From a virus (taxonomy: Duplodnaviria; Caudoviricetes): a stretch of DNA of 51,826 nt. Numbering within the stretch: position 1 is the stretch's first letter; the number at the start of each line of letters is the position of its first letter. The DNA lies in the IMG/VR virus record IMGVR_UViG_3300031902_000012, positions 1-51,826 of that record; one strand, 5' to 3'. Shown here piece after piece: positions 8,477 through 25,806 of this stretch. The position numbers were made by a program, and so were the translations under genes. Below the pieces are notes generated by a model. It was given only the letters and a program-made list of their open reading frames with translations, ran no database searches and was not told the DNA's origin.

Positions 8477-8511
8477 CCTGCCCAACCGACGAATCATCAG
8501 GAGCTACCTCT

Positions 8512-9114
8512 ATGAAGAACTCCCTCTTTCGCCTGGTTCTGGCGCTGCTGCTGATCTCGGCGGCCAGCACGGCAGACGCGCAAGTCGTCACCAAGCAGCC
8601 CTTCTTCGCCCCGACAAACACATGGGTCGATCTGGCCAACGGCCCGATCGAAGTCATGCCGATCGAGGGCAGCGCGATCGTTTACACCTCGAGCGGCGGT
8701 GCCGGCGTCACCGGAACGTCCGCCGGCACCACCGCACTGACCTTGAGCGCCACGCCCGCAGTCGCGCCCTGCGTCGGATGCGTCATCACTTGCGCACCGA
8801 CCAACACGGCAGCGTGCACCATCCCGGCCAACACGACCGTGACCGCGTTCAACGGCACCACCGGCGTGACGACATCGGCCAGCACGACCGTAACGGCCGC
8901 GTCGCTTACCTGGGGTGCTGCGTGCCCTGTCACCGGCACGTTCCCGCCCGCGCCAAGCGCCACCGGCAACACCTTGAGCGCTCCGCTCAACCTGCGCGCC
9001 GGCGTCGACCCGTTCGTCTCGGGCATTCCGCTTTACACGGCCGGGCGCGTCTGCCTTTACGGCGGCCAGCAGCAGGGCGGCACGGTCGTAACCTTCGCGA
9101 TCGGCGCGCATTGA
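8512..9114 (+). CDS. Signal-peptide-bearing, Cys/Thr-rich putative virion appendage protein
   Basis: MKNSLFRLVLALLLISAASTADA|Q, with 6 Cys. Confidence 0.75.
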   Translation: MKNSLFRLVLALLLISAASTADAQVVTKQPFFAPTNTWVDLANGPIEVMPIEGSAIVYTSSGGAGVTGTSAGTTALTLSATPAVAPCVGCVITCAPTNTAACTIPANTTVTAFNGTTGVTTSASTTVTAASLTWGAACPVTGTFPPAPSATGNTLSAPLNLRAGVDPFVSGIPLYTAGRVCLYGGQQQGGTVVTFAIGAH

Positions 9115-10991: not shown

Positions 10992-13900
10992 TCAGAAGTG
11001 TTATCACCGCATTCATCATCGCTCTATTTGCGGCCGGCGGTGCTGAAGCTCGGCCAAGGGGCATTGTCGCGATCAACACGGGGTCATCGTTCAACGGTGG
11101 CGCGGTGCAAGTCAACTTTAACGATACTCAAGTTGACTTCGCTTGGCCGTTTACGAACTTCGTCAAGAATATGGCGACTTGGTCGCTCGTCAACAATCTT
11201 GGGTCGCCGTCGCCTGCGGACATTGATCTTTATGGATACCCTATTCCTGGGACCCCGACCATGGCGTCTTACGGGGGCGTCTACAACATTGTCCACATGC
11301 CAGCGGAGCTTTATGTAGTCGGCAACTGCATTCCAGCGCAGGCGTCGGGGTACTGCCTGTCGATGCGGGTTAACGGGAAAGGCACCGTACTCAACCCAGG
11401 CACGATAATCACGGGATCTGCGCCGGCCGCGAACATCACGACCGGATCGACGACTGTCCTAGGGTTCGCGGGGGTGGCGCAAGATTTCCGTGCTGGGATG
11501 GAAGTGCCGATTACGGGCGCGAGTGGCGTCGTCCAGGGCGCTAACGGCCCGCATCCTGGGAGCGGGTTATCTGCGGACGTGTTTACGGTTTGCACCGCCA
11601 ACCTGACTACGACACAGATACAACTGTGCTTGAATGATCAGGTAACACCGCTGCAAAGCACGGGGACCGCCAGCACGGCGGCTACCGTCTCGTATGGCCG
11701 TGCAGCGGTAGGGGTTGCTACAAAGGGTCGGTTCGTAACGGTCGTCAATGGGAGCCCGGAACAGTTCAGCGTAGGCATTACTGCAACGGACGCGACTTCG
11801 CCCATCACTTATGCCAACGACATCGACGCCGGGCTAGTGATGGTGTTGCAAGGTTCGGAGGAAACCAGATATCAAAGCGGTTGCACCGATTGCATATTTG
11901 GCTCGCAATTCTTGAGCCGGCTCAAGGGCTCGAATGTCGGGATCTTACGCGCTCTAAATTCCGTTGGCAGCAGTAACGCAACCAACTTCAGCCGCGAAGC
12001 TGTGTGGGCTGATCACAAGCCCGTCTCTTACGTAAATTGGGCATCTGACTACGTCACGGCGCAGACGGCAGTAAATTCAGGGACGAAGATATTTGCCGGA
12101 ACGACAACCAGCGTAGGGAACGATTATTCTGTTACGTTTGGTTCAGGTGCTCCCCCCGATAAGACGAGGTTGGTTGTCCAGTGGGATGCGCAAGCGGCTA
12201 GCACTAACAACTCAGGGAGTGGGGTCGCTGCTCAGGTTACGGCTACGTCTCATGGGCTAAGCGCAGGGGACCCGTTTAATTTTTTCTACACTTTTACCGG
12301 GGCCACAATCCCGACGTTCACCTCGACGTTTACCGGAACCGTGTCTGGCAACACTCTGACAGTTTCCGGTTCCAATGCCGCAATTCCATTTCCAGGTCGA
12401 GCCCAGTTTGGGTTTTCTGCTGGCGTCCAGGCAGGCACGACGACGGTAAGCGGTGCGTGCATCACGTCAGCTACGATAACCGCACAGCCGAGCGGGACAC
12501 CAAACGGCGATGGTAACTATACGATCAGCGGCGGTGCGCAGACTGCCGGTCCTTGCACCATGACGGCGACGGGTGCGATCCCGACGAGCGGTCAGAACCA
12601 ACCTGTCTATTTCGTCTCCAGTGTCATTGATGCTGATCATTTTACTTTCTCCCCAGCAAGCGGCGGCCCGACAGTTGCTACGACCAACAGCGGCGCAAAT
12701 CTGTTGGTGCACAAGGTTGTCGTCAATTCGTCGGTCACGTTCGCAGGCGGCAACACCGCAACTATCAATTGGGCGAACCACGGTCTTAATATAGGCGATT
12801 GGGTCGGCTTCTACGCAAATTCCGGTGGCCTTCCAACGGTACAGGCTACTGGGGCATTTATCCTAAACAACCTGCTCTATTGCGTCGTTTCCACCCCGAC
12901 GTCAGGAACAATCACTGTAGCATCAGCGTGCGGAGGAACCGCGCTGACGTTCTCGACCACAGGCGGCACGATCATCGCGTCTCGCGCTCCAACGCTCAAC
13001 TATAATGGCACGGGCGCTGTTCCCATCATGTCGGCACTGTCGCAGCCGATCGCAACTGGGCAGGCATCAGCGCCCTATGCTCGACTGTTTGGCAAAGCTC
13101 AGCAGTTCTCAGTTCTTGTTTATGACAAGCTGGTCAATGCTTGGCTCAAGGTCGGTTCGGACGGAAGCACGGGAACATCAGCCTATATGACTGGAGGGTG
13201 GCCTCCTGAAATATTTGTCAGGCTTTGCTATGTAATCGGGGCGCAGCCGTGGTTCGTATCACCACCATACACGCTTGACGGTTATACCGATCCGACAACG
13301 CACGTTGGCGGTATCACAGACTACATGCCAAGCTTGATGACCTACATCAGGGACAATTATCAAAACACGATCGCCCCGTGGATGGTCCCGTATATCGAAG
13401 TGCACAATGAGCTATGGAACAATCCGTTCCCTGGGACGCAGGTTTCTTACGCCCACTCTGGGGCGTACAGCGAATCGGGACGGCCTGTCTATGCCGGTTG
13501 GAACCCAACCGGCAGCAGCGTGAACGCATACGCAGGCAAGGTTGCATCTGTTCTTGGGCAGGCCGCACAGAACGTATACGGCGGAACGCTCGGGCAGAAG
13601 TATCATATGATACTTGGGTTTCAAACGGCCAGCATGGCAAATACGTCGGGTTCGGCGTCCCCGAACGGACCTGCGGCTAATGCTGAGCGTATGACTTCAT
13701 CCAACTATGTCGGCCAGACGGTTGCCGCGCAGTCTGGCTACGCTCTCGACCCCGCGAGTAAGTGGGTCTCCGATGTGGCGGGTACCGGATACGTTAACCC
13801 TGGGCAGTATACGACAGCAGACGAGACGGCAGAAGCCGCAACGTGGGCGGGCGGCGTTGTGGCCGGCTCTATCACGGCGGGGAATCCAGGAACCTTAAAT

Positions 13901-14788
13901 ATCACGACGTTCCGCATTGGAACAGTTGGCGTAGGCACGCAGATCAGCAGCGCAGGCGTTATTCCAGGCACCACGATCGCGGCTTGTCCTGGCGGCAATT
14001 GCTCAATAGCTGGAGCGTATACGCTTGACCGCGCCTACACGTCTCCGGTCGGGTCCAACGACTTCAGTACGTTTGCATCATCACCATCAGGCGCTCAAAA
14101 TATTGCATTGCAGACCTATATTGATTCCATGAACTACACTGCGCAGTTTACGGGCTCTGTGTCAGGCACCACTACTCTGACGGTATCAAGCGTCACGTCT
14201 GGGAAAATCTATCCGTCAACAGCGGGAGCCGGTGCCGTTATTCGGTCAAACGGTTTTCCAGATTTGTTGCTATGGGGTGCGGCGGCTCCTTCCTTGGTTG
14301 CGATTAAGCAGCAATTGACTGGGACGCCGAACGGCGTCGGTACGTATCTCCTTAGCTCGGCAGTGACGGCCTCCGGAACCATGTATTCAACTCACCAATT
14401 TGGGATCATGGGGCTTGACCAAGTATATGCTAACATTTCGATCTATGCGAATACGTATACGAACCGGGATAGTAAGCACCCTGGGATACTACAGTACGAG
14501 GGCAGCTACACTCCGGACTACGCCGTTCAAGGCGTGAACGGCGGGCGAAGCCAAGTGGATCAATTCAGGTGGGCAGGGAAAAATGTGGCCAGCACGCCTT
14601 TGATGGCAAACGGCATCCTCGGTTATATCCAGCTCAACAACACGACGTTTAAAAACCGTGGCGGCCTCTACCCGTCTTTGTTCCAGTTCTCTGGAAGAAA
14701 CCCAACCAATAACGACTGGTCGGCTCTCGAAGATATATACCAGCAGACGCAATCACCCATTTGGAACGGGTTTAATACATGGCATTGA
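10988..14788 (+). CDS. Large spike/depolymerase-like protein with a signal peptide and split glycoside-hydrolase-like motifs
   Basis: MIRSVITAFIIALFAAGGAEA|R. YIEVHNELWN and LQYEG motifs. Inserted repeats (HGLSAGD/HGLNIGD; FTGxVSG-TLTVS). Lower GC than the flanks. Confidence 0.7.
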   Translation: MIRSVITAFIIALFAAGGAEARPRGIVAINTGSSFNGGAVQVNFNDTQVDFAWPFTNFVKNMATWSLVNNLGSPSPADIDLYGYPIPGTPTMASYGGVYNIVHMPAELYVVGNCIPAQASGYCLSMRVNGKGTVLNPGTIITGSAPAANITTGSTTVLGFAGVAQDFRAGMEVPITGASGVVQGANGPHPGSGLSADVFTVCTANLTTTQIQLCLNDQVTPLQSTGTASTAATVSYGRAAVGVATKGRFVTVVNGSPEQFSVGITATDATSPITYANDIDAGLVMVLQGSEETRYQSGCTDCIFGSQFLSRLKGSNVGILRALNSVGSSNATNFSREAVWADHKPVSYVNWASDYVTAQTAVNSGTKIFAGTTTSVGNDYSVTFGSGAPPDKTRLVVQWDAQAASTNNSGSGVAAQVTATSHGLSAGDPFNFFYTFTGATIPTFTSTFTGTVSGNTLTVSGSNAAIPFPGRAQFGFSAGVQAGTTTVSGACITSATITAQPSGTPNGDGNYTISGGAQTAGPCTMTATGAIPTSGQNQPVYFVSSVIDADHFTFSPASGGPTVATTNSGANLLVHKVVVNSSVTFAGGNTATINWANHGLNIGDWVGFYANSGGLPTVQATGAFILNNLLYCVVSTPTSGTITVASACGGTALTFSTTGGTIIASRAPTLNYNGTGAVPIMSALSQPIATGQASAPYARLFGKAQQFSVLVYDKLVNAWLKVGSDGSTGTSAYMTGGWPPEIFVRLCYVIGAQPWFVSPPYTLDGYTDPTTHVGGITDYMPSLMTYIRDNYQNTIAPWMVPYIEVHNELWNNPFPGTQVSYAHSGAYSESGRPVYAGWNPTGSSVNAYAGKVASVLGQAAQNVYGGTLGQKYHMILGFQTASMANTSGSASPNGPAANAERMTSSNYVGQTVAAQSGYALDPASKWVSDVAGTGYVNPGQYTTADETAEAATWAGGVVAGSITAGNPGTLNITTFRIGTVGVGTQISSAGVIPGTTIAACPGGNCSIAGAYTLDRAYTSPVGSNDFSTFASSPSGAQNIALQTYIDSMNYTAQFTGSVSGTTTLTVSSVTSGKIYPSTAGAGAVIRSNGFPDLLLWGAAAPSLVAIKQQLTGTPNGVGTYLLSSAVTASGTMYSTHQFGIMGLDQVYANISIYANTYTNRDSKHPGILQYEGSYTPDYAVQGVNGGRSQVDQFRWAGKNVASTPLMANGILGYIQLNNTTFKNRGGLYPSLFQFSGRNPTNNDWSALEDIYQQTQSPIWNGFNTWH

Positions 14789-16708: not shown

Positions 16709-17125
16709 ATGTTCTACCGGCCGGGCGGCAGCGCAGGGCGGATCAACGCGCAGTACGATCAGGTCTACACGGACCAGATCGGCGGTGCGACCGCGTGGCT
16801 GCCGATCAACGAGGGCTTCAAGATCGCGGTCAATATTGCTCGCGCCTCGATCGTGTTCGGCAACTCGGCGGCCAGCGCCGTGACGCCATCGCCGATCGCG
16901 CCCGAGGTCCAGGTGTTGATGGAGCGCAAGATGTTCGGCGGCGACCCGGATGCCGCTGCGATCGCGGTCAACCAGTGGCAGAACGAGGTCATCGCGACGA
17001 CAGTCAAGGCGCAGGCCATGGGCTGGGTGCGGCTCCGCGTTGTGAACATCAACAACAGCGACGGGACCGGCGTGCTGCTGGCGCTGCAGATCAGCAAGAA
17101 CGGCGACGCCAATGTCGGGGTTTGA
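16709..17125 (+). CDS. Putative virion structural protein
   Basis: Beta-rich 138-aa ORF with WVRLRV near the C-terminus. Confidence 0.65.
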   Translation: MFYRPGGSAGRINAQYDQVYTDQIGGATAWLPINEGFKIAVNIARASIVFGNSAASAVTPSPIAPEVQVLMERKMFGGDPDAAAIAVNQWQNEVIATTVKAQAMGWVRLRVVNINNSDGTGVLLALQISKNGDANVGV

Positions 17126-18059
17126 GACCGGGGCGCGCGTCAAGCAGTTCGGCTCAATCTTGCGCGGCTTCGGGCCGCCGGTGCCGCAGGCCGGCGTTGT
17201 CGGGGACCTCTACGTCGACACGCAGACCTGGCAGCTTTTCAATAAGCGATTCGCCGAAGCGGGCGTCGACCCGTGGGGGCACTACCTGTTCATCGTCCCG
17301 CCGACCTACCGCACGACCCTGAAATGGTTCAGCGCCTACCCGCCCGGTGACGACATTGGCGTGAACGGCGATTATTGCCTGGCGTGGGCAGGCTGGGCCA
17401 ATTACGGCCTGCAGCCCTCAATTTACGGCCCGAAGGCGCTCGGCACCTGGCCCGAAAACGGCAACGGCCCCAACACCACGATCGCGGCGCTCGGTGCCGG
17501 CACGGTGTTGCCGGTCGGCCTGCTGGACGAAGGCAGCGCCATTACCTACTCGACGTCGTCGCAGTTGATCGTCGTTGGCCTGCTCGACGAATATATTCTG
17601 GCTGTCCCGGCGACCGCGAACGCTGGCGACCCGGTGTCGCAGCTCGGCTTGCAGTCGGGGCCGGCGCTCGTGCCCGTCACCCTCAACCCGCTTTACACCG
17701 CAACGGACGAGATAATCCTCAGCGGCAGCGCCGGTACAGCTCGGCTTCCAGCCGCCGCCGCGACGGTCGTCATCGCGGTGTCGGATCTTGAGGTCGGCAT
17801 CGATTCGGCGTCGGCGCCAACCTCGGTCACGCTGCCGAGCGTCGCTGCGTGGGCCGCGGCCAACCCGAGCAGCCTGGAATTGACCGTGTTCGATTACACC
17901 GGCCACGCGCTCGCGAACAACATCACGCCGACGCTGAACGGGACCGACGTGTTCACGCAGGGCGTCGTGCCCGTGATCTTGAACAACTACGGCGAGTTCA
18001 AGCTGCGTCCGATCATCACCGGCGGCGTCAACCAGTGGTTTGTGAGGGCCGTCGGATGA
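17112..18059 (+). CDS. Tail/fibre adaptor-like protein, paralogue A1
   Basis: N-terminal ~120 aa paralogous to 18820-19230. GVVGDLY and GVNGDY motifs. C-terminal TLP...D...N.IT domain. Confidence 0.75.
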   Translation: MSGFETGARVKQFGSILRGFGPPVPQAGVVGDLYVDTQTWQLFNKRFAEAGVDPWGHYLFIVPPTYRTTLKWFSAYPPGDDIGVNGDYCLAWAGWANYGLQPSIYGPKALGTWPENGNGPNTTIAALGAGTVLPVGLLDEGSAITYSTSSQLIVVGLLDEYILAVPATANAGDPVSQLGLQSGPALVPVTLNPLYTATDEIILSGSAGTARLPAAAATVVIAVSDLEVGIDSASAPTSVTLPSVAAWAAANPSSLELTVFDYTGHALANNITPTLNGTDVFTQGVVPVILNNYGEFKLRPIITGGVNQWFVRAVG

Positions 18060-18823
18060 GACTGATTGCGGCAGTACTGCTGACCTTTTTCTCGAACGTG
18101 GCGTTCGCGCAGTCGGGCCTCATTCCGCAGAACTCGGTCGTGGCGGGGCCGACGGCCGGCGGCCAGGGCTTTCCGCGCGCCAGGTCGCTCACGGCCGCGG
18201 ATCTGCCGTTTCTCGGCACTGGTGTGGGGGCCGCACTCGGCACAGCCGTAGGCTCGGCGGGGTCGGTCGTCCTCAATGGCGGCGCGCTCGGTACGCCTTC
18301 GTCAGGCGTCGGAACGAACCTCACCGCGCTAAATGCATCCAACCTCGCGAGCGGCACCGTGCCAACTGCGCAGCTGCCCGCCGGCCAGTACCCGGGTACG
18401 GCGACGAACGACAACGCCTGCACGACATGTGCCGGGGCATTCCTTTCGTCGAACGTCATCGTCGCTTCGGCGGTGTCGCTCACGACCGCGACGCCCAAGG
18501 ACATCACCACGCTGACCTTGACCGCGGGCGATTGGGACGTGTCGGGCATGTGCGAGACGCAGCCGACCGGCGGCGCCGTCGTGACCGGGTTCATATGCGC
18601 GATCGGGCCGACGCTGAACACGCTCAACACGACGGTGTCGGACAGCAGCGCTTTCAGCCTGGACAGCTCGACGCAGGCCGCGAGTGCGAACCTGTCGCTC
18701 ACGACGGACACGGCCCGCATTTCCTTGGCCGGATCTGCGACGTACCACCTCGTGGCGCAGGCGACGTTTGCGAGCGGCACGGTGGGCGGGTTTGGCAAGA
18801 TCAGAGCGCGGCGGATGCGATGA
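18056..18823 (+). CDS. Fibre-like protein with a Sec signal peptide
   Basis: ATG 18056 overlaps the upstream stop. MRLIAAVLLTFFSNVAFA|Q. Motifs LTALNASNLASGTV and LTLTAGDWDV, ending ARRMR. Confidence 0.8.
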   Translation: MRLIAAVLLTFFSNVAFAQSGLIPQNSVVAGPTAGGQGFPRARSLTAADLPFLGTGVGAALGTAVGSAGSVVLNGGALGTPSSGVGTNLTALNASNLASGTVPTAQLPAGQYPGTATNDNACTTCAGAFLSSNVIVASAVSLTTATPKDITTLTLTAGDWDVSGMCETQPTGGAVVTGFICAIGPTLNTLNTTVSDSSAFSLDSSTQAASANLSLTTDTARISLAGSATYHLVAQATFASGTVGGFGKIRARRMR

Positions 18824-19230
18824 GCGGCTTCGGTTCCATCGCGCGCGTCAAGCAGTTCGGCGCAATCCTGCGCGGGCTTGGCCCCCCTGTGCCGCAAGCT
18901 GGCGTGGTCGGGGATCTGTATATTGATGGGCAGACGTTCCAGCTTTTCAACAAGCGATTCGGAGCCGCCGGGCCGGACCCCTGGGGCCGCTATCTGTTCG
19001 TGGTGCCGCCCACCTACCAGATAGCTTTGAAGTGGTTCACGGCATCCGCACCGGCGAAGGATCTCGGCGTGAACGGCGATTACTGCCTGCTGTGGGGCGG
19101 CTACCCAAACTACGGCCTGCAGCCCTCAATCTTCGGGCCTAAAGCCGCCGGCGCGTGGCCGGGGTCTGCAACGCCGGTCGCCGTGACGCTGAATCCTCTC
19201 TACACCGGAGAGGACGTGCATGGCATATAG
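18820..19230 (+). CDS. Tail/fibre adaptor-like protein, paralogue A2
   Basis: MSGFGSIARVKQFGAILRGLGPPVPQAGVVGDLY, closely matching the start of 17112. Confidence 0.8.
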   Translation: MSGFGSIARVKQFGAILRGLGPPVPQAGVVGDLYIDGQTFQLFNKRFGAAGPDPWGRYLFVVPPTYQIALKWFTASAPAKDLGVNGDYCLLWGGYPNYGLQPSIFGPKAAGAWPGSATPVAVTLNPLYTGEDVHGI

Positions 19231-20380
19231 CCCGACTACAGACTTCGTCGGACTTTGGCGCGCGAGCGGCGGTAACGTTTCGAAGCTCGAAATGCCGGGC
19301 CTGGATTTCGTCGTCGCGGCTCTCGGCCGCGCGGGGCTGATCACGGTCACCGCATCGGCGACCGCGCCAGTCGCCAACCAGGCGACCACAGCGTGGCTGC
19401 ACACGGCGTCGCCGAGTTCGAGCGCCGAAGGTGCGCTGAACCTCTGGAACGCGTCCGCGAGCGCCTACGCGCCCGCCACACCCCCACTGTTCCTGGCCTT
19501 CCTGGACGCGTGCACGGGCGCCAACGGGGTGTCGTGGTGGACGTCCACCGGCGGTCCGCCGTTGAACACCGTGGGCCTGAATGGAGACTTCGCCGTCCGG
19601 CTCGACCAACCAGGCGGCATCTACGGGCCGAAGGTCGCGGGCGCGTGGCCCGCAACGCCGCTGCCCGGCACAACGACGGCCTTCATCAGTGCGGATCTCG
19701 ACGCAGCATTCGGCGCGGCTACCGGCGAAATGCTGTTCCGCGGCATCTCGCTATGGCAGGGGCTCCCGATCGGCGCTGCGGACACGATCCTGTCGCCGGT
19801 GTCTGGCGTTCCCGCCTGGCGAACGCTGAACGTGCTGCTTGACGAGATCTTTGGGACGACACGCGGCTCTATTCTGTCGCGTGGTGCGTCCGCGTGGGCC
19901 GGCATCCCGCCAGGGGCAGCGGGCACCGTGATCAAGTCCAACGGCCCTGGCGCCGACCCATCCTATGCGGTGCCTGAGTTTGCCAGCGGCACTTCGATGC
20001 TGTTCTATCAGGCGACAGCCCCGACCGGATGGACCAAGCGAACGGACACCAACGACATCGGCCTGCGCCTGACAGGCGGCGGAACCGGCGGCACGATCAG
20101 CGGCAGTGTGGCCTTTTCGACGGTGTTCGGGCAGACAGCTACGGGCGGCACCGCGATTAGCGTTGCGCAGATGCCGGCGCATCACCACACGACAACAGCG
20201 GATGGGCTGCCGGTCGAATACGCCGGCGCCGGCAGTTCAGGCGTCACTTCCGCGGGCGTAGCGCAGCCGACGCAAACATCGGTTTTCAGCATGGCCGACA
20301 ACGGCGGCGGATTGCCGCACACGCACTCCATCAACATGCAGCTCACGTATGCGGACGTGATTGTTTGCGTGAAGAACTGA
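19220..20380 (+). CDS. Tail fibre protein, paralogue B1, with a collar-like C-terminus
   Basis: MAYSPTTDF...MPGLDFVVAALGRAGL. C-terminal FASGT.MLFYQATAPTGWTK...YADVIVCVKN. Confidence 0.75.
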   Translation: MAYSPTTDFVGLWRASGGNVSKLEMPGLDFVVAALGRAGLITVTASATAPVANQATTAWLHTASPSSSAEGALNLWNASASAYAPATPPLFLAFLDACTGANGVSWWTSTGGPPLNTVGLNGDFAVRLDQPGGIYGPKVAGAWPATPLPGTTTAFISADLDAAFGAATGEMLFRGISLWQGLPIGAADTILSPVSGVPAWRTLNVLLDEIFGTTRGSILSRGASAWAGIPPGAAGTVIKSNGPGADPSYAVPEFASGTSMLFYQATAPTGWTKRTDTNDIGLRLTGGGTGGTISGSVAFSTVFGQTATGGTAISVAQMPAHHHTTTADGLPVEYAGAGSSGVTSAGVAQPTQTSVFSMADNGGGLPHTHSINMQLTYADVIVCVKN

Positions 20381-20387
20381 GGATGCA

Positions 20388-21005
20388 ATGAGCTACGCAC
20401 CCACGACCGATTTTATTGCGCTGTTGCGACTCACGGCCAACGGCGTCCGGAACGAACGCATGCCGGGGCTCGACTACGTCGTCTCTGCGCTCGCGCGGGC
20501 CGGGCTGCTCAACATTTCGGTCAGCCAGACTGCGCCCGTTACGAACCAAGCGGCGACCGCATGGTTTCGTCCTGCGGTACCAACGTGGACCGCGGAGGGT
20601 ATACTCTACCTCTGGAACGCCACGACGTCAGCTTACGAGGTTGCCACGCCCGCGTTGTGGACCGCATTTCTGGTGGGCGCGTCGTCGGGCTATCTGTTTC
20701 AATCGGTGGCGTCTGGCTCTGCCACGATTAACCCCGGCGTATCGTTGCTGGCTATCCAACGCGTCAGCCCGACTGCAACGGCGTTGCTGCTGCCCAACCT
20801 CGGCGCGCAGTGGAATTCGGGCCGCGAGCTCCGGATCGTCGATTTCTCGACGGCCCTCACCGTGCACACCACCACGCTGACGACTCCTGATGGTTCCACC
20901 ATCATGCAAAAAACATCATGGAGTCTGCGATCAACTCCCGACAGCCTTGCAGGCGTCATGTTGACGCCGTCCCCAAATCTCAACTCGTGGGTCATCACGC
21001 CATGA
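20388..21005 (+). CDS. Tail/fibre adaptor-like protein, paralogue B2
   Basis: MSYAPTTDF...MPGLDYVVSALARAGL, paralogous to 19220. Confidence 0.75.
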   Translation: MSYAPTTDFIALLRLTANGVRNERMPGLDYVVSALARAGLLNISVSQTAPVTNQAATAWFRPAVPTWTAEGILYLWNATTSAYEVATPALWTAFLVGASSGYLFQSVASGSATINPGVSLLAIQRVSPTATALLLPNLGAQWNSGRELRIVDFSTALTVHTTTLTTPDGSTIMQKTSWSLRSTPDSLAGVMLTPSPNLNSWVITP

Positions 21006-22411
21006 AGAAGCTGCTTGTTGCTTTTGCCGCGCTGCTGCTCGCGGCGCCCGCTGCTGCTCAGTGGCAGACGCCGAATCACTCTATCCCGATCGGCCAAGGC
21101 GGCGGCGTTACGGGTTTCAACAGCGTAGGCCCCGCGGCGGCAGACCTGCCGCTTGTCGGCAACGGCGCGAGCGCAGACCCGTCGTTTCGTGTGCTACCCA
21201 ACGCAGGGCTCGCAAACCCGACTGTTTCGGTGAACGGCGTAACGTGCGTGTTGGGTTCGTCGTGCATCCCTGGTTTCATGAATTCGTTCACCGTCAGCCA
21301 CGCAATCGCGCCTGCGGATTGCGGCGGCATCGTCCAGATGGGGTCGGGCGCGCAAACGGGATTGACACTGACGCTGCCGGCCAGCCCCCTGAGCAACGGC
21401 TTTACGGGTCCGTGCCCGGTGACGATAATTGGGCAGGCGTCCCGCGCAATCATACTCTCTGGCTTCTCCGGGTTGGCGCTTACATCCCCGAACATGCTGT
21501 GGCCAACGAAGTCGTTTTCAGTGGCGATCAACAGTGCGGGCGCATGGGCACTGACCGCTCCGGACGGCCGCTACCGCCCACTCGGGACGTTGACGCTTAC
21601 GGTCGACACCAGCGGCAGTGACGCCGCGGGAGACGGTCTCGGGGTTGGCGGCGCAACGTCGTTCCGCAATATCCAGACCTGCATGAACGCGATTTCGAAT
21701 TTTTTCGATTTCACGGCCACCGGCAGTCAGCCGACGTGCGGGCCGACAGTGGGGCAGACGTTTACGGAAGCGTTGACGTGGGCGTGGCCCCCGGTAGGGA
21801 CCAACACGCTGAACCTCGCGGGGCAAGGCGGCGCATTCATCCTGCGATCGCCGAGCGCGGCGCCGGCGCTGTTCGCCGGTAACGGCGCCAACATTCAGCT
21901 TACCAACATCACGATCACAGGAACGGGGGCTGGTTGCGGCACTGGGTGTATTCACGTCAGCATGCACAACGCCAGCGTCGTAGAGCCACTGGCGGGCGTG
22001 ACTTGCGACAACACAGGCGCCGGCGGTGCTTGTTTCAAGACCGACATCAACACCGCGGGCGGCGCCCGCCTGAACATCGACAACGGGCTCACCGTGTCGG
22101 GCACTGTCGGTACCATCGTGGATCTCAACGGCGGATCCTCGATGATATGGAATTCGACGCTTGTCGCTTCGGGCCTGACGCTGGCCCAAGTGTTCGCCGG
22201 TCGAGGCGCGGGTACGAATCTGGTGCTCCAGGGCAACTTCGGCGTCTCCGGTAGCTTCGGCACCGCGAGGCAGTGGGCGATCCTGAATAACGCCACGCTG
22301 TGCAACGTCAGCGGCGTGGCCGTCCCCGGCAGCACCGCAGGAATCGCTTCCGGTGCCGGCTTTGCGGCGGGTGTGATCGTCAACAGCGGGACGTCCGCCA
22401 GCGCCTGCTGA
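21002..22411 (+). CDS. Fibre/spike protein with a Sec signal peptide and a probable beta-helix head
   Basis: ATG 21002 overlaps the upstream stop. MKKLLVAFAALLLAAPAAA|Q. TVDTSGSDAAGDGL...FRNIQ is a typical beta-helix cap. 12 Cys. Confidence 0.8.
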   Translation: MKKLLVAFAALLLAAPAAAQWQTPNHSIPIGQGGGVTGFNSVGPAAADLPLVGNGASADPSFRVLPNAGLANPTVSVNGVTCVLGSSCIPGFMNSFTVSHAIAPADCGGIVQMGSGAQTGLTLTLPASPLSNGFTGPCPVTIIGQASRAIILSGFSGLALTSPNMLWPTKSFSVAINSAGAWALTAPDGRYRPLGTLTLTVDTSGSDAAGDGLGVGGATSFRNIQTCMNAISNFFDFTATGSQPTCGPTVGQTFTEALTWAWPPVGTNTLNLAGQGGAFILRSPSAAPALFAGNGANIQLTNITITGTGAGCGTGCIHVSMHNASVVEPLAGVTCDNTGAGGACFKTDINTAGGARLNIDNGLTVSGTVGTIVDLNGGSSMIWNSTLVASGLTLAQVFAGRGAGTNLVLQGNFGVSGSFGTARQWAILNNATLCNVSGVAVPGSTAGIASGAGFAAGVIVNSGTSASAC

Positions 22412-22466: not shown

Positions 22467-23237
22467 ATGGAACCGGCATCGATTCGCTTCAAGAACCCCG
22501 GCGCGATGTGGGGCAACGCGCTGGCCCGGAAATGGGGCGCGGAAGCGAAGGCCGTTGTTCTGCATGACGGACTCGGACAGGGCAACAATATTGCCGTGTT
22601 CCCGACCTACGTCGCCGGGATCTGCGCGCAGCTAGATCTCTGGCGCACCTCCAAGAACTATCACAACAAGCGGTTTGAAGACGCGATTCGGATCTGGTCG
22701 GGCGGCAACTATGCCAGCTCCTATGTCCAGTTCGTCACCTCGCGCGTGCCCGGCATGACCGCAGATACGGTCATGAATGACGCGTTTCTCGGCGGCCCGT
22801 CCAGTATCGAGTTCCTGAAAGCGCAGGCGTGGCGCGAAGCCGGCAAGAAGTACCCCGCACCCGATTCGGACTTCCAGGAGGCGCATCGCCGCGTGTTCGA
22901 CCGCGCCGCCGTCGCGCAGCCGATGCCCGTTCCAGAGCCCGCCCTGCCCGCGCGCGACACCGCGTGGCTGCAGCGCAGCTTGAACACGTTGGGTGCCGCA
23001 CCGCCGCTCGTGGTTGACGGGATCGTGGGGCCGAAGCTCCGCGGCGCAATTCAAGGCTATCAACAGCAGCACGGCCTTGACGTCGACGGTCTCATCGGCC
23101 CGGCGACGCTGCGACAGATCGACATCGATCTGGCCGCGCTCAAGCCAACGCCCGCGCCACCGATCGCCAAGGTTGCGGCGCCCGGCCCCGACTTCTTCGA
23201 ATATCTCAAAGGTTTCTTCTTCAAGACGAAAGGGTAA
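22467..23237 (+). CDS. Endolysin (lysozyme-like N-terminus plus peptidoglycan-binding domain)
   Basis: RFKNPGAM...AVFPT..AG N-terminus. WLQRSLN...LVVDGIVGP...QQQHGLDVDGLIGPAT matches PG_binding_1. Confidence 0.8.
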   Translation: MEPASIRFKNPGAMWGNALARKWGAEAKAVVLHDGLGQGNNIAVFPTYVAGICAQLDLWRTSKNYHNKRFEDAIRIWSGGNYASSYVQFVTSRVPGMTADTVMNDAFLGGPSSIEFLKAQAWREAGKKYPAPDSDFQEAHRRVFDRAAVAQPMPVPEPALPARDTAWLQRSLNTLGAAPPLVVDGIVGPKLRGAIQGYQQQHGLDVDGLIGPATLRQIDIDLAALKPTPAPPIAKVAAPGPDFFEYLKGFFFKTKG

Positions 23238-23243
23238 GCACCC

Positions 23244-23408
23244 ATGACCAATCTGACCGTTCTTGGTGACATCTGCCTCGGGCTCGGCTCCTACGCTCTC
23301 GGTGCGTGGACGTGGCCCTACATCCACAAGGCGGCTCTTGGCGCCGAGGCTTACGCCGCCAAGCTGCGCGCGAAGGCCGCCGCGATCACGACGGCGGCGA
23401 GGAGCTGA
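23244..23408 (+). CDS. Small membrane protein in the lysis cluster
   Basis: MTNLTVLGDICLGLGSYALGAWTWP..., 54 aa, filling the gap between endolysin and holin. Confidence 0.55.
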   Translation: MTNLTVLGDICLGLGSYALGAWTWPYIHKAALGAEAYAAKLRAKAAAITTAARS

Positions 23409-23409
23409 C

Positions 23410-23985
23410 ATGGACTGGTCGGCGGTAGGCAAGCTTGTCGGGCCGATGGCCCCCACGATCGGCGGATTGCTGGGCGGTCTTATCCCGTTCCCCGGCGGCG
23501 CCGTGCTGGGTAAGGTCGCGGGCAGCGTGATTGCCGAGGCGCTGGGCGTCGCGCCGACGCCGGAAGCGGTCAGCAACGCCGTCACGACCGGCGACCCGAC
23601 CGCGGTCCAGGCCAAGCTAACCGAGGCTGAAGCCAGGATGCAGGCCGAGGTCGAGAACTTCAAGACGCAACTCGCTGACGTCCAAGATGCGCGCGCAACG
23701 ACCGTCAAATACGTTCAGGCCGGTTCGAACCTGTCGCTTGGCGCGGTCGTCGTCTCGATTGCGGTCTTGGTGGGGTTCATAGGGCTGTCGTTTTTGGCGA
23801 TGAAGCCCGACACGGCCGGCGTCGACAAAAGCGTGACGCTGTACCTGCTCGGCGCATGGCAGAGTCTGGCCACGGCAGCCATCACTTTCTGGATCGGTAG
23901 TTCGTCGGGTTCGGCGGCGAAGTCGGACCAGATCGCTGCGCTTACGCAGGCAGCTGCGATGCCGGCGCGGCCGGTGAAAAAATGA
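23410..23985 (+). CDS. Holin-like membrane protein
   Basis: MDW...APTIGGLLGG...DVQDAR, two TM segments, then FWIGSSSGSAAK. GAGGAG RBS. Confidence 0.7.
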   Translation: MDWSAVGKLVGPMAPTIGGLLGGLIPFPGGAVLGKVAGSVIAEALGVAPTPEAVSNAVTTGDPTAVQAKLTEAEARMQAEVENFKTQLADVQDARATTVKYVQAGSNLSLGAVVVSIAVLVGFIGLSFLAMKPDTAGVDKSVTLYLLGAWQSLATAAITFWIGSSSGSAAKSDQIAALTQAAAMPARPVKK

Positions 23986-24101
23986 AGGTGCTCGCGATAT
24001 GCGGCGCAATTTTGGTCTTACCCCTCTGCGCACTGTTCGGCCTGTGGGTGTGGGTGGGGCACCTGCTCGACAAACGAGGCCAAAGGGCTACCAGACGATG
24101 A
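23982..24101 (+). CDS. Small membrane peptide
   Basis: ATGA-coupled. MKVLAICGAILVLPLCALFGLWVWVGH. Confidence 0.5.
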   Translation: MKVLAICGAILVLPLCALFGLWVWVGHLLDKRGQRATRR

Positions 24102-24265
24102 AAACGCTGCTCATTGTTATGACCACGGTCGCCGTTGTGTGGTCGTTGCTGGTTCTCGCCTTCAACGCTTTGCGTGCCGGCACCACTGATTTCGTAGGCG
24201 GCTGGACCATCGGGCTCGTGTGGGCGGTCGTCGGCGCCGTGGACGTGGCGTTGTATTTTGGATGA
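24098..24265 (+). CDS. Small two-TM protein
   Basis: ATGA-coupled on both sides. Confidence 0.55.
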   Translation: MKTLLIVMTTVAVVWSLLVLAFNALRAGTTDFVGGWTIGLVWAVVGAVDVALYFG

Positions 24266-25806
24266 CAATGCCGTGGGACGCCCCCGCGAAGCCTTCGCGG
24301 GATGAACTGCGCAACATGCTGCGGGACTTCGATACCTACCGCAGCAAGTTCCTGCGCATCCGGCCGCGCGCCGGCGGCGAGCGCATTCCGTTCGTGCTCA
24401 ACCACGCACAGCAGCGGCTCCACGCGTCGCTGGAGGAGGAGCGCAAGACCTTCGGCCGGGTTCGCGCGCTGATCCCCAAGGCCCGCCGGATGGGCGTCAG
24501 CACCTACGTAGGCGGCCGGTTCTTCCACCGTGTCGGAACCGAGTTCGGGCGCCGCGCGCAGGTCGTGGCGCACCGCGGCGACTCGGCGGCCAACCTGCAC
24601 CGGGAGATCAAGGAATTCGCCACGTCGCTGCCGCAGGCTGTGCGGCCGTCGATCGGTGCCACGAACAGTTATGAGCTGATCTTCGATAAGCTGAAGTCGC
24701 TTTATAAGGTCGCGTCGGCCGAGGGCGGCGACATCGGCCGATCGGACGACTTCCACCTTCTGCACCTCTCCGAAGCGGCGTTTTTCGACAACACCGAGGA
24801 TCTATCGTCCGGCCTGCTGCAGACTGTTCAGGACGAGCCGGGCACCGAAATCATTGAGGAGAGCACCGGCAACGGCCAGTCGGGTATGTTCTTCAGCCAG
24901 TGCGAGCAGGCCTACCGCGAGCACAACAAGGGGCCGTGGCGGCTGCACTTTCTGCCCTGGACCTTCATGCCCGAGTACCGGAGCGAATGCCCGGCAGGGT
25001 GGAAAGCCCCGCAGGAGTTCGAGGAATACGGCCGCCTGCACAGTCTCGACCGCGAGCAGCTGCGTTTTTTCTGGACCAAAAATTACACTATCGCGGTCAT
25101 GAACGGCGGGCAGCCCGAGAAGATTCACCATCTCGCGCGCCAGGAATACCCGGCCATGTATAGCGAATGCTTCATGGCCGATTCGACGCTCGACTTCTTC
25201 CTGCCGTCTTTGGTCACAGCCGCGATGACCAAGCAGCCGGCGCCGTCAGCCGGCGCGCTGAAGCTGCTTTGCGTCGATCCGGCCGGCGACGGCCAGGACA
25301 AGCCGTTCGTTTGCGACCGGCAGGGCTCGGCGATCGGCGCCCGGGTGTGGGGCGAGCTGGCGTCTCGAGACGCGAACGTGGCGTCCGACTGGCTGGTCGC
25401 CACGTTCCGGCGCTTCGATATGGACGCGATCCTGATGGACAACACCGGCGGTTTCGGGCGCGACCTGGTCGCGGGCTGCCGGCTGCGCATGCGATCGTTG
25501 GGACCTGAGAAGGTCGTTCCGGTCGTCTTCAGCTCCGGAGCGCGCAACCAGATCCAGTACGGCAACCGGCGCGCGGAGCTCCACGACAAGCTGCAGCAGT
25601 GGCTCCAGGGCGACGTCAGCATCCCGAACGACAAGATGCTGCAAGAGGAGATGGCGGCCTACAAGTGGGGTGCAGGCGGCTGCCACCGCGACGAAAAAGG
25701 CCGCCTATTCATGACGCCCAAGGAGAAGATCCGCGCCACATTCAGCCCTGCTCGGTCTCCGGACCGGCTGGACGTGGCGGCGATATCGATGGCTGTTGAG
25801 GCGTAG
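24262..25806 (+). CDS. terL: Terminase large subunit
   Basis: LNHAQ; Walker A PKARRMGVST; Walker B LHLSEAAF; ESTGNG; nuclease VDPAGDGQD...SPDRLD. Confidence 0.92.
   Translation: MTMPWDAPAKPSRDELRNMLRDFDTYRSKFLRIRPRAGGERIPFVLNHAQQRLHASLEEERKTFGRVRALIPKARRMGVSTYVGGRFFHRVGTEFGRRAQVVAHRGDSAANLHREIKEFATSLPQAVRPSIGATNSYELIFDKLKSLYKVASAEGGDIGRSDDFHLLHLSEAAFFDNTEDLSSGLLQTVQDEPGTEIIEESTGNGQSGMFFSQCEQAYREHNKGPWRLHFLPWTFMPEYRSECPAGWKAPQEFEEYGRLHSLDREQLRFFWTKNYTIAVMNGGQPEKIHHLARQEYPAMYSECFMADSTLDFFLPSLVTAAMTKQPAPSAGALKLLCVDPAGDGQDKPFVCDRQGSAIGARVWGELASRDANVASDWLVATFRRFDMDAILMDNTGGFGRDLVAGCRLRMRSLGPEKVVPVVFSSGARNQIQYGNRRAELHDKLQQWLQGDVSIPNDKMLQEEMAAYKWGAGGCHRDEKGRLFMTPKEKIRATFSPARSPDRLDVAAISMAVEA

What the first reader, a model, noticed from the sequence alone, without database searches (positions are those of the whole stretch)
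17112..22411. Duplicated cytoplasmic adaptor genes translationally coupled to the secreted fibres
Seen: there are two paralogue pairs, 17112/18820 (RVKQFG.ILRG.GPPVPQAGVVGDLY) and 19220/20388 (Y.PTTDF...MPGLD.VV.AL.RAGL). One member of each pair (17112 and 20388) ends in a similar beta domain (TLP/LLP...EL.V/I.D...IT/TT...G/D). Each of those is followed, with an ATGA overlap, by a signal-peptide gene (18056 and 21002). The small gene at 9116 likewise precedes 9498. Inference: a branched fibre system in which cytoplasmic sockets are built on the virion and each captures a dedicated exported fibre.
Basis: partly seen in the sequence, partly recalled or inferred. Interest (0 to 1): 0.75.

Follow-up and report, generated by a model that had tools for sequence, protein, structure and literature searches.

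The report
Phage fibre sockets paired with signal-peptide fibres
An uncultivated phage carries a branched tail-fibre system of a known general design, but every side fibre that plugs into a socket starts with a classic bacterial export signal, which would mean that part of the virus particle is made outside the cytoplasm.

Summary
The observation largely holds. 17112/18820 share an N-terminal domain (75% identity), and so do 19220/20388 (57%). The C-terminal domains of 17112 and 20388 are barely alike in sequence. Both are modelled confidently, and both hit the same T4 gp10-like "XD" branching domains, such as CBA120 TSP4-N. ATGA overlaps at 18056 and 21002 are real.

In 53 non-duplicate loci, all 44 socket genes are followed by a signal-peptide gene. 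Only 6 of 138 non-socket A/B genes are. The downstream proteins have a variable signal peptide and an A-x-A|Q site (Q at +1 in 36 of 36). A conserved ~46-residue mature peptide follows, then swapped receptor-binding domains: Collar, Peptidase_S74, End_tail_spike, Beta_helix. A 3+3 complex model docks the first mature residues into the 20388 socket (score 0.89, best control 0.02).

The 9116/9498 pair is not analogous.

Verdict: this is a branched receptor-binding system of a known kind whose branches are apparently Sec-exported. Export and post-lysis docking are inferred, not shown. I found no description in print.

The parts
16709..17125 (+). Conserved 138-aa gene that lies just upstream of the first A-type gene in the relatives; function unknown; context only
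   Evidence: tblastn hits at 53-73% identity lying upstream of the first A_N hit in nearly all loci that reach that far; no Pfam or PHROG hit
17112..18059 (+). A1 (315 aa): A_N anchor module (aa 1-130), linker containing the LNPLYTA motif, and a C-terminal T4 gp10-like socket (aa ~204-315, nt ~17721-18056)
   Evidence: 75% identity to 18820 over 114 aa. AF2 C-terminal blocks (residues 211-315) have mean pLDDT 80-94. Foldseek hit to CBA120 TSP4-N at E 1.9e-6, plus T4 gp9/gp10 and KP1 baseplate chains. 14 full-length homologues (13 relatives plus the window's own protein) among 444 family hits; the rest of the 120 listed are mostly ~200-215 aa (three are 238-300 aa) and align only over the first ~61-71% of A1
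18056..18823 (+). S1 (255 aa): signal peptide aa 1-18 (AFA|QS), mature N-terminus QSGLIPQNS..., fibre-like C-terminus with 4 Cys
   Evidence: ATGA overlap with A1. Translation. The same arrangement occurs in L003. Atlas structure neighbours are viral clusters with TM 0.58-0.61, which is a lead only
18820..19230 (+). A2 (136 aa): A_N module only, ending in VAVTLNPLYTGEDVHGI; no socket
   Evidence: Two tandem A genes are the usual pattern across the relatives
19220..20380 (+). B1 (386 aa): B_N module (aa 1-95) fused directly to its own fibre/tip domain; no signal peptide
   Evidence: 57% identity to 20388 over 95 aa. Weak match of aa 301-377 to a solved 'Tail fibers protein', 9nxk_A, E 0.0048. 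B1_C-type hits occur in many relatives
20388..21005 (+). B2 (205 aa): B_N module (aa 1-95) plus a T4 gp10-like socket (aa ~99-205, nt ~20682-21002); 0 Cys
   Evidence: 370 homologues at E<=1e-3; the 120 listed are 200-210 aa. AF2 pLDDT 84-92 over aa 101-205. Foldseek hits to Solidus gp83, CBA120 TSP4-N, KP1 baseplate chains and T4 5iv5_AC, and 136 BFVD hits at E<=1e-3 including named tail fibre proteins
21002..22411 (+). S2 (469 aa): signal peptide aa 1-19 (AAA|QW), conserved docking peptide aa 20-65 (nt 21059-21196), variable beta-helix-like C-terminus with 12 Cys
   Evidence: ATGA overlap. Alignment A3. Signal-peptide statistics. Complex model with B2. Atlas feature neighbours are Pect-lyase_RHGA_epim clusters at 0.88, a lead only

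Best explanation
The region is the receptor-binding module of an uncultivated tailed phage, built as a branched system.

Two N-terminal anchor modules are each used by several genes. A_N is in 17112 and 18820. B_N is in 19220 and 20388. Two of these proteins, A1 (17112) and B2 (20388), end in a T4 gp10-like 'XD' branching domain that acts as a trimeric socket.

The gene translationally coupled to each socket gene (S1 at 18056, S2 at 21002) encodes a receptor-binding fibre or spike. Its first ~46 mature residues form the cognate docking peptide. Its C-terminal part is freely swapped among relatives.

Unlike every branched system I know of, these docking fibres are made with a cleavable Sec signal peptide. 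The peptide that docks begins exactly at the predicted cleavage site.

The most likely course is as follows. S1 and S2 are exported and their signal peptides removed. They fold and trimerise in the periplasm, with disulfide bonds. They plug into sockets on cytoplasmically assembled particles only when holin and endolysin action mixes the two compartments, or after release.

Shown here: the paralogy, the shared fold of the sockets, the signal-peptide anatomy, the strict adjacency, and the co-variation of socket and peptide classes. Supported by a model only: the socket-peptide contact. Inferred: export, cleavage, disulfides, the time and place of docking, and the assumption that A_N and B_N attach to the tail.
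For: Phage context. The window is a virus record estimated 99% complete. It has a large terminase, an endolysin and a 1338-aa protein with a transglycosylase match flanking the module, and a weak, partial match to a major head and protease family (E 6e-7) plus DNA polymerase and helicase elsewhere.

Socket fold. Both models hit CBA120 TSP4-N (A1 E 1.9e-6; B2 E 2e-3), KP1 baseplate chains (110 and 106 columns at rmsd 3.7 and 3.2) and T4 gp10; the A1 model also hits T4 gp9.

Adjacency. 55 of 55 full-length B2-like matches are followed by a gene starting with a hydrophobic N-terminus and a Q(W)QTPNHS-like motif, or other Q-initial mature motifs after the four extra sockets in L041-L044. The heuristic called 52 of these and I read 3 by eye. 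Four loci are duplicates. The start lies at -4 in 45 rows, at -1 in 8, and at -19 in 2 where the start was mis-chosen. After removing duplicates, 44 of 44 socket genes are followed by a signal-peptide gene, against 6 of 138 non-socket A/B genes.

Cognate pairing. B2c socket pairs with the QWQTP type in 40 cases. A1c on A pairs with the QSGL type in 2. A1c-like on B pairs with the QxxGTVT type in 3. A third 199-aa class pairs with the QxNPGTSP type in 3.

Signal peptide, n=36. Length 18-28. K/R in the first 8 residues in 36 of 36. Position -1 is A in 34, -3 is A in 32, and +1 is Q in 36 of 36. Mean pairwise identity is 33% in the signal region, 58% in mature residues 1-46, and 19% beyond.

Family size. 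547 cluster representatives at E<=1e-3 and 202 at E<=1e-10. Of 159 sequences inspected, 154 have a signal peptide directly before the Q-motif (147 by regex, 7 by eye). The other 5 are proteins with internal repeats. None starts directly with the docking peptide.

Receptor-binding identity. 4 of 9 signal-peptide proteins from relatives carry Collar, Peptidase_S74, End_tail_spike or Beta_helix above Pfam's cut-offs. PF12708 and PF07484 also appear. 3 of 34 B_N-fused fibres share C-terminal modules with signal-peptide proteins.

Docking. B2 96-205 x3 with S2 20-75 x3 scored 0.89 (three runs: 0.89, 0.91, 0.89). The best of 3 controls scored 0.02. In the tool's calibration the mark was reached by 58 of 80 solved complexes and 2 of 110 mismatched pairs. 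These counts hold only roughly, because I used my own alignments and a 3+3 job. Runs agree in at least 93% of contacts and partner pLDDT is at least 90. The interface is S2 20-24 and 32-41 against B2 172-190, 203 and 205.

Oxidising compartment. Mature Cys content is 1.8% in signal-peptide proteins, against 0.01% in B+socket proteins. The mature Cys count is even in 34 of 37 complete signal-peptide proteins.
Against: There is no experimental datum of any kind. There is no cultured relative: terminase identity is at most 31%, and A1 and B2 have no hit among deposited phages or in representative genomes.

Tailed-phage particles assemble in the cytoplasm (established knowledge), so exported fibres face a topological barrier. 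The proposed post-lysis docking has no precedent that I know of.

Oxidative folding cannot be the universal reason for export. 2 of 37 signal-peptide proteins have no mature Cys. One relative fuses B_N directly to a 16-Cys domain without a signal peptide (L056). Some receptor-binding modules occur in both the exported and the fused forms.

The sequences are related, so the adjacency and parity counts are not independent events.

The complex model used my own alignments and a 3+3 stoichiometry unlike the tool's calibration. gp10-like complexes have been solved, so part of the pass may reflect likeness to them.

The A1-S1 pair was not modelled and rests on 2 loci (window and L003). 13 further full-length A1 homologues exist, but I could not see their context.

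No signal-peptide predictor was available; the call rests on my own heuristic and on inspection.

The host and its envelope type are unknown. No spanin was recognised.
Confidence: 0.5

Rival explanations
1. The branched docking system is the same, but assembly is entirely cytoplasmic. In infected cells the N-terminal hydrophobic segment is not used for productive export. This could be because late infection shuts down or saturates Sec, or because translational coupling lets the socket capture the nascent chain. The segment would then be removed otherwise, tolerated, or serve another role such as folding or membrane contact during infection.
For: Cytoplasmic assembly is the rule for tailed phages (established knowledge). 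Tight ATGA coupling of socket and fibre genes would favour co-translational capture. Some receptor-binding modules work when fused to B_N without any signal peptide. 2 of 37 signal-peptide proteins have no Cys.
Against: The segment has every feature of a cleaved Sec signal, and only its character is conserved, not its sequence (33% identity against 58% for the docking peptide). Q at +1 is invariant (36 of 36). 154 of 154 family members with an N-terminal docking peptide keep the signal peptide. The modelled interface uses mature residues 20-24, directly at the cleavage site, so an uncleaved 19-residue extension on each of three chains would sit in the contact. Even Cys counts in 34 of 37 point to disulfides.
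Confidence: 0.2
2. S1 and S2 are not virion parts. They would be secreted accessory proteins, such as periplasmic or released depolymerases that strip the receptor, superinfection-exclusion factors or decoys. The preceding socket proteins would do something else.
For: Signal peptides. Other phages place exported exclusion proteins next to receptor-binding genes, for example T5 Llp (PMC9586334, seen in a search listing) and Cor (recalled). The same phage carries further signal-peptide genes of unknown role at 8512, 9498 and 10988. Relatives carry a Wzy_C-like membrane protein nearby, at 25.5 bits, below the 31.7 cut-off.
Against: This reading does not explain several things: why a ~46-residue N-terminal peptide is conserved while the rest is swapped; why peptide class co-varies with socket class; why these genes occur only after socket genes (44 of 44 against 6 of 138); or why the peptide is modelled confidently inside the socket. 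The C-terminal domains are classic virion fibre and spike domains, including the Peptidase_S74 intramolecular chaperone and Collar. There is no lipobox, since +1 is Q and not C, unlike Llp and Cor.
Confidence: 0.15
3. Both are true. The exported fibres first act in the periplasm of the infected cell, for example by degrading or masking nascent surface polysaccharide receptor so that progeny are not lost on debris. They then dock on virions at lysis.
For: All the evidence for the best explanation applies. In addition, beta-helix, pectate-lyase-like and endosialidase-like domains occur in S-type proteins, and these are typically polysaccharide depolymerases (established knowledge).
Against: There is no direct evidence for any periplasmic activity. 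Several S-type proteins carry non-enzymatic tips (Collar), and the Atlas feature neighbours of S1 include C1q-like clusters, a lead only.
Confidence: 0.1

Closest known systems
CBA120 (Ackermannviridae) TSP1-4 complex: TSP4 N-terminal anchor plus the XD1-XD3 gp10-like domains that bind the other tailspikes (PMC8825819, abstract read; PMC11414711, search listing only)
   Same: The A1 and B2 C-terminal domains hit TSP4-N chains 7rfv, 7rej and 7rfo with probability 1.00. An N-terminal anchor is followed by a trimeric beta-sheet domain that holds another receptor-binding protein.
   Different: Here there is one XD-like domain per protein, and each socket protein is otherwise 'empty', carrying no receptor-binding domain of its own. 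The phage is unrelated, with a 52-kb genome. The docked partners carry Sec signal peptides. To my knowledge (recalled) the CBA120 TSPs have none.
Klebsiella podophage KP32/K11/KP34 dual-RBP system: the branching domain of RBP1 binds the conserved N-terminal docking peptide of RBP2 (PMC13352976, abstract read)
   Same: A conserved short N-terminal docking peptide sits on a secondary RBP whose C-terminal domain is freely exchangeable. The gene lies directly downstream of the branching-domain gene. The partners are cognate.
   Different: In KP32 the branching domain sits inside a full RBP1 with its own depolymerase. Here B2 is only anchor plus socket. Here the docking peptide is exposed only after removal of an 18-28-residue signal peptide. 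There are up to three socket/fibre pairs per genome and at least four socket/peptide classes across the family.
T4 baseplate gp10 (and gp9), the prototype XD domains that attach fibres gp11/gp12 and the long tail fibres
   Same: Fold-level match: 5iv5_AC, 2fl8_A and 1qex_A for A1, and 5iv5_AC for B2, over about 109-115 columns at rmsd 3.8-5.3.
   Different: No sequence similarity. This is not a baseplate context. The partners here have signal peptides.
Exported phage proteins encoded beside receptor-binding genes, e.g. the T5 Llp lipoprotein (PMC9586334, listing only) and Cor (recalled)
   Same: A signal-peptide gene lies next to RBP genes.
   Different: Those are small lipoproteins that block the receptor and are not virion parts. 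Here there is no lipobox (+1 is Q in 36 of 36). The proteins are 255-1270 aa and carry fibre and spike domains.

Membership tests
Branched RBP systems with a T4 gp10-like branching domain (CBA120 TSP4 / KP32 RBP1-RBP2 type) | The branching domain adopts the gp10 XD fold | tested here: met
   AF2 models have C-terminal domains with 10-residue-block mean pLDDT of about 80-94. Foldseek hits TSP4-N, T4 gp10 and KP1 baseplate chains for both models, and T4 gp9 for A1 only, with probability 0.98-1.00. TM-scores over the whole models are low (0.2-0.4) because only one domain matches.
Branched RBP systems with a T4 gp10-like branching domain (CBA120 TSP4 / KP32 RBP1-RBP2 type) | The secondary RBP has a conserved N-terminal docking peptide and an exchangeable C-terminal receptor-binding domain | tested here: met
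   Alignment A3: mature residues 1-46 have 58% mean identity, later residues 19%. C-termini carry different Pfam domains.
Branched RBP systems with a T4 gp10-like branching domain (CBA120 TSP4 / KP32 RBP1-RBP2 type) | The branching domain and the docking peptide bind each other | tested here: met
   Model level only. Score 0.89 against a best control of 0.02. The mark was reached by 58 of 80 solved complexes and 2 of 110 mismatched pairs in calibration, which holds only roughly here. Contacts agree in at least 93% of cases and partner pLDDT is at least 90. Socket and peptide classes also co-vary. No physical measurement was made.
Branched RBP systems with a T4 gp10-like branching domain (CBA120 TSP4 / KP32 RBP1-RBP2 type) | The N-terminal anchor domain attaches the complex to the tail | not testable with these tools
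   A_N and B_N are conserved. They have no Pfam or PHROG match and are modelled with low to moderate confidence. The tail proteins of this phage are not identified.
Sec (SPase I) signal peptides | Positive n-region, hydrophobic h-region, small residues at -3 and -1 | tested here: met
   n=36. K/R in the first 8 residues in 36 of 36. Maximum 10-residue hydropathy at least 2.26. Position -1 is A/G/S in 36 of 36 and -3 is A/V/S in 36 of 36. Length 18-28. This is my own heuristic; no SignalP run was possible.
Sec (SPase I) signal peptides | Actual translocation and cleavage | not testable with these tools
   Indirect only: even mature Cys counts in 34 of 37, and the docking interface starts at the predicted +1 residue.
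Phage exclusion lipoproteins next to RBP genes (Llp/Cor type) | Lipobox with Cys at +1; small size | tested here: not met
   +1 is Q in 36 of 36. Lengths are 255-1270 aa.

The most novel reading that the evidence does not exclude
A large, uncultivated phage family completes its virions outside the cytoplasm. Its side receptor-binding fibres are Sec-exported, lose a signal peptide, and fold oxidatively in the periplasm. They snap onto gp10-like sockets of cytoplasmically built particles only when lysis merges the compartments. They possibly act first as periplasmic receptor-destroying enzymes.
Probability: 0.4. Interest if true: 0.85.

Novelty: new variant of a known kind. Interest (0 to 1): 0.7.

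Why it matters
Branched receptor-binding systems are the main route by which phages widen host range, and they are a current engineering platform. In every case described so far, to my knowledge, all parts are cytoplasmic.

A family in which every plug-in fibre carries an export signal would mean one of two things. Either virion assembly can span two cell compartments, or signal peptides have an unrecognised role in fibre assembly. The family has at least 547 clusters at 50% identity for one docking-peptide class alone.

It would also give a simple genomic rule for finding plug-in receptor-binding proteins in metagenomes: a ~200-aa anchor-plus-socket gene overlapping a signal-peptide gene. And it would provide a set of at least four orthogonal socket/peptide pairs.

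Tried and rejected
Family and database searches
- Pfam on the six genes and on 8512, 9116 and 9498 gave only one sub-threshold hit, to TraW_N.
- PHROGs gave only phrog_8093, of unknown function, on A1 280-312.
- DNA and protein searches of deposited phages with the region, with A1 and with B2 found nothing.
- A scan of representative prokaryote genomes with the B2 alignment found no relative, so no host could be named.
- Sequence search of the PDB found nothing for S2 or for 10988, and only a weak fibre hit for B1.

Errors and unavailable tools
- Searches failed on a wrong coordinate and were repeated correctly.
- A GC3 filter for gene calling failed on lower-GC relatives, so I replaced it with a walk from gene to gene.
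- The earlier-findings tool was not open.

Ideas rejected
- 9116 (or 7739) as a third socket: rejected.
- The hydrophobic N-terminus as itself the docking element: rejected, because its sequence is not conserved and the modelled contact lies in the mature part.
- A programmed frameshift fusing B2 to S2: considered from the junction sequence. I saw no slippery site and did not pursue it.

Lysis genes
- A search for a lipobox (o-spanin) in the lysis region found only an implausible ORF.

Literature
- Six searches for signal peptides on tail fibres or tailspikes were run. I opened passages from four of the papers they listed.
- None of these described Sec-exported virion fibres.
- Subscription journals and supplementary files were not searchable.

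Full report
CONTEXT

The window is a complete or near-complete virus record: 51,826 bp, with completeness estimated at 99%.

The finding lies in a long run of genes on the + strand. A 1338-aa protein with a transglycosylase match lies at 2204-6220. After it come about 15 kb of unannotatable genes, then an endolysin with PG_binding_1 at 22467-23237, a membrane protein (phrog_1544), and the large terminase at 24220-25806. A 309-aa protein with a weak, partial match to a major head and protease family (phrog_4523, E 6e-7) lies further along the + strand, and DNA polymerase, helicase and primase lie on the - strand.

There is no cultured relative:
- The terminase is at most 31% identical to any deposited phage.
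- The region, A1 and B2 have no match in the deposited phage collection.
- The B2 alignment has no match in representative prokaryote genomes.

So the host is unknown.

THE OBSERVATION

The six genes are A1 17112-18059, S1 18056-18823, A2 18820-19230, B1 19220-20380, B2 20388-21005 and S2 21002-22411.

Paralogy:
- A1 and A2 share 85 of 114 N-terminal residues (E 1e-63).
- B1 and B2 share 54 of 95 (E 1e-32).

Gene junctions:
- ATGA overlaps join A1/S1, S1/A2 and B2/S2.
- A2/B1 overlap by 11 nt, and B1/B2 are 7 nt apart.

The claimed likeness of the A1 and B2 C-termini is not detectable by BLASTP. It is weak by profiles: hhalign E 8e-4, probability 24%, 39 columns, and reciprocal HMM hits of E 3.7e-4 and 3.3e-3 in a search of seven sequences.

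Structure settles the question:
- With alignments of 39 and 44 homologues, AlphaFold2 models both C-terminal domains confidently. Ten-residue-block means are 80-94 over A1 211-315 and 84-92 over B2 101-205. The secondary-structure orders are similar (several strands, a helix, further strands), though A1 has a second short helix.
- Both models retrieve the same solved structures: the N-terminal part of CBA120 tailspike 4, baseplate chains of Klebsiella phage KP1, Solidus gp83 and T4 gp10. T4 gp9 was retrieved by A1 only.
- B2 also has 136 matches at E<=1e-3 among predicted viral structures, many of them the N-terminal parts of annotated tail fibres and pectate-lyase-type spikes.

The shared domain is therefore the gp10-like 'XD' branching domain.

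The 9116/9498 pair does not fit:
- The junction is a 4-nt gap.
- 9116 has no likeness to either socket.
- In five of five relatives examined, its homologue is followed by a small protein that the heuristic did not flag as having a signal peptide.

ANATOMY ACROSS RELATIVES

Protein searches gave three families:
- 370 B2-like proteins; the 120 listed are 200-210 aa.
- 444 A-like proteins, of which only 14 (13 relatives plus the window's own protein) are full-length with the socket. Most of the other listed ones are about 200-215 aa; three are 238-300 aa.
- 19 proteins sharing the first 75 residues of S2.

Scans of viral contigs gave 59 loci, L003-L061.

Domain-level tblastn and a gene walk show a common plan. 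A conserved 138-aa gene comes first, followed by two tandem A genes. Then come one to four B genes. Each B gene is one of two kinds: B_N fused directly to a long fibre domain, or B_N plus a ~100-aa socket followed by a signal-peptide gene.

Counts after dropping four loci that duplicate the same contig region:
- All 44 socket genes (42 on B_N, 2 on A_N) are followed by a signal-peptide gene.
- 6 of 138 non-socket A/B genes are followed by one.
- Those six are B-type genes called at about 160-200 aa. Two have starts my walk mis-called. Four have a divergent C-terminal domain that my HMMs missed. One of these, L041_3, still aligns weakly with the B2 socket (E 5.5e-4).

In the simpler first pass, 55 of 55 full-length B2-like matches had such a downstream gene. 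The heuristic flagged 52, and I read 3 by eye because they have an acidic residue in the hydrophobic stretch. The start lies at -4 in 45 rows, at -1 in 8, and at -19 in 2 where a GTG was mis-chosen.

Socket class and the first mature residues of the partner co-vary without exception:

| Socket class | Mature N-terminus of partner | Cases |
|---|---|---|
| B2-type | Q(W)QTPNHS | 40 |
| A1-type on A_N | QSGL | 2 |
| A1-like on B_N | QxxGTVT(N/S)HAFAIGKG | 3 |
| Third 199-aa class | Q(T/V)NPGTSPLSIAKGG | 3 |

One further row in that call is an A gene with a mis-called start, and I discount it.

ARE THE PARTNERS REALLY SIGNAL-PEPTIDE PROTEINS, AND REALLY FIBRES?

Signal peptide. In 36 distinct S2-type N-termini:
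- The pre-sequence is 18-28 residues long.
- K/R occurs in the first eight residues in 36 of 36.
- The hydrophobic core scores at least 2.26.
- A sits at -1 in 34 and at -3 in 32.
- Q is invariant at +1.
- Mean pairwise identity is 33% before the site, 58% in mature residues 1-46, and 19% afterwards.

That is the signature of a cleaved signal followed by a conserved functional peptide. It is not the signature of a conserved hydrophobic docking element.

An exhaustive HMMER search with S2 1-75 found 547 cluster representatives at E<=1e-3 and 202 at E<=1e-10. Of the 159 sequences I inspected:
- 147 matched a strict pattern.
- 7 more show the same layout by eye.
- 5 are different proteins in which residues ~25-70 match an internal repeat.
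- None begins directly with the docking peptide.

Fibre identity. I scanned nine S-type proteins of relatives:
- Four carry Collar (57.9 bits), Peptidase_S74 (40.3), End_tail_spike (27.9) or Beta_helix (26.8), all above Pfam's cut-offs.
- One has Pect-lyase below its cut-off.
- Four have no match.
PF12708 and PF07484 also appear among the hits.

The Atlas neighbours of S2 and S1 are viral beta-helix and fibre-tip clusters, but their scores are below 0.9, so these are leads only. Three of 34 B_N-fused fibres share C-terminal segments with signal-peptide proteins. So the same receptor-binding modules move between the fused and the plug-in formats.

DOCKING

One complex job was available. I sent the B2 socket (residues 96-205, 44-row alignment, three copies) with mature S2 (residues 20-75, 36-row alignment, three copies). 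Results:
- Score 0.89 (runs 0.89, 0.91, 0.89).
- Best of three controls 0.02.
- The mark was reached by 58 of 80 solved complexes and 2 of 110 mismatched pairs in the tool's calibration. This holds only roughly here, because the alignments were my own and the job was not a pair of single chains.
- The runs agree in at least 93% of contacts, and partner pLDDT is at least 90.
- The contact uses S2 residues 20-24 and 32-41 and B2 residues 172-190, 203 and 205.

The model supports binding but does not show it. Because gp10-type assemblies have been solved, part of the pass may reflect that likeness. The point that matters is that the first residue after the predicted cleavage site sits in the interface.

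WHERE DOES DOCKING HAPPEN?

This is inference.

Evidence for export:
- The signal-peptide anatomy above.
- Mature S-type proteins average 1.8% Cys, against 0.01% for socket proteins, 0.23% for other B proteins and 0.54% for A proteins.
- The number of mature cysteines is even in 34 of 37 complete S-type proteins, as expected for disulfide pairs. The sequences are related, so this is not 37 independent trials.

Evidence against a simple 'needs oxidative folding' story:
- Two of the 37 have no cysteine.
- One relative fuses B_N to a 16-Cys domain with no signal peptide (L056).
- Modules are shared between the two formats.

If the proteins are exported, they can meet the sockets only after the inner membrane is breached. 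In canonical lysis of diderm hosts, holin lesions and endolysin action mix cytoplasm and periplasm before the outer membrane fails (established knowledge). That would allow docking at high local concentration. Nothing here tests this. No spanin was recognised, and the envelope type of the host is unknown.

COMPARISON WITH WHAT IS KNOWN

The architecture is an anchor, a gp10-like branching domain, and a conserved N-terminal docking peptide on a swappable secondary receptor-binding protein. This matches the CBA120 TSP complex (PMC8825819, abstract) and the KP32/K11/KP34 RBP1-RBP2 system (PMC13352976, abstract).

Differences:
- The socket proteins are bare adaptors.
- There are several orthogonal socket/peptide classes.
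- Every plug-in partner has a signal peptide.

I found no paper describing Sec signal peptides on virion fibres. I ran six searches and opened passages from four papers. Subscription journals and supplements were out of reach.

VERDICT

- The 'socket captures a dedicated fibre' reading is well supported and belongs to a known kind of system.
- The exported nature of the fibres is strongly suggested by sequence and would be new.
- The mechanism by which exported fibres reach the particle is unproven.

Noticed in passing
window 9498-14788 (+): Two large signal-peptide proteins lie here: 9498-10991 (497 aa) and 10988-14788 (1266 aa). They sit largely within a stretch of lower G+C (0.56-0.58, against about 0.65 on either side). 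They have no Pfam, PHROG or PDB sequence match. The relatives fetched have at most partial matches to 9498 and none to 10988. This looks like recently acquired cargo of unknown role.
   Followed up: partly
window 7739-9114 (+): The 245-aa gene at 7739 is followed by a 200-aa signal-peptide protein at 8512 with 6 mature Cys. The pair is conserved in many relatives (58-66% and 33-48% identity). Neither gene has a family match, and 7739 is not socket-like.
   Followed up: partly
L005:4632-5720 (also L007 and L026): Some relatives carry a 362-aa polytopic membrane protein between the 8512 and 9116 homologues. It has a sub-threshold Wzy_C (O-antigen ligase/polymerase) match of 25.5 bits, against a cut-off of 31.7. 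It may be a surface-polysaccharide-modifying moron. The window lacks it.
   Followed up: partly
window 17670-17708 and 19176-19227; ends of A genes in relatives: A-type proteins end in a conserved motif, (V/I)TLNxLYTxEDxHx(I/V), immediately before the first B gene. In A1 the same motif is internal (aa 187-199), and the socket is appended after it. This may be the A-to-B contact, but I did not test it.
   Followed up: no
proteins P0309, P0316, P0348, P0356, P0377: Residues ~25-70 of S2, the docking peptide, match up to 13 tandem internal stretches in unrelated long fibre-like proteins. The docking peptide may therefore derive from a common fibre-shaft repeat.
   Followed up: no
L056:6001-7980: One relative has no socket/signal-peptide pair. 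Instead it fuses B_N directly to a 560-aa domain with 16 cysteines and no signal peptide. This is a natural counter-example to the idea that Cys-rich fibres must be exported.
   Followed up: partly
window 23244-24265 (+): The lysis region has an endolysin, a 54-aa protein with an N-terminal hydrophobic stretch, a phrog_1544 membrane protein and an 88-aa membrane protein. There is no recognisable lipoprotein o-spanin.
   Followed up: partly
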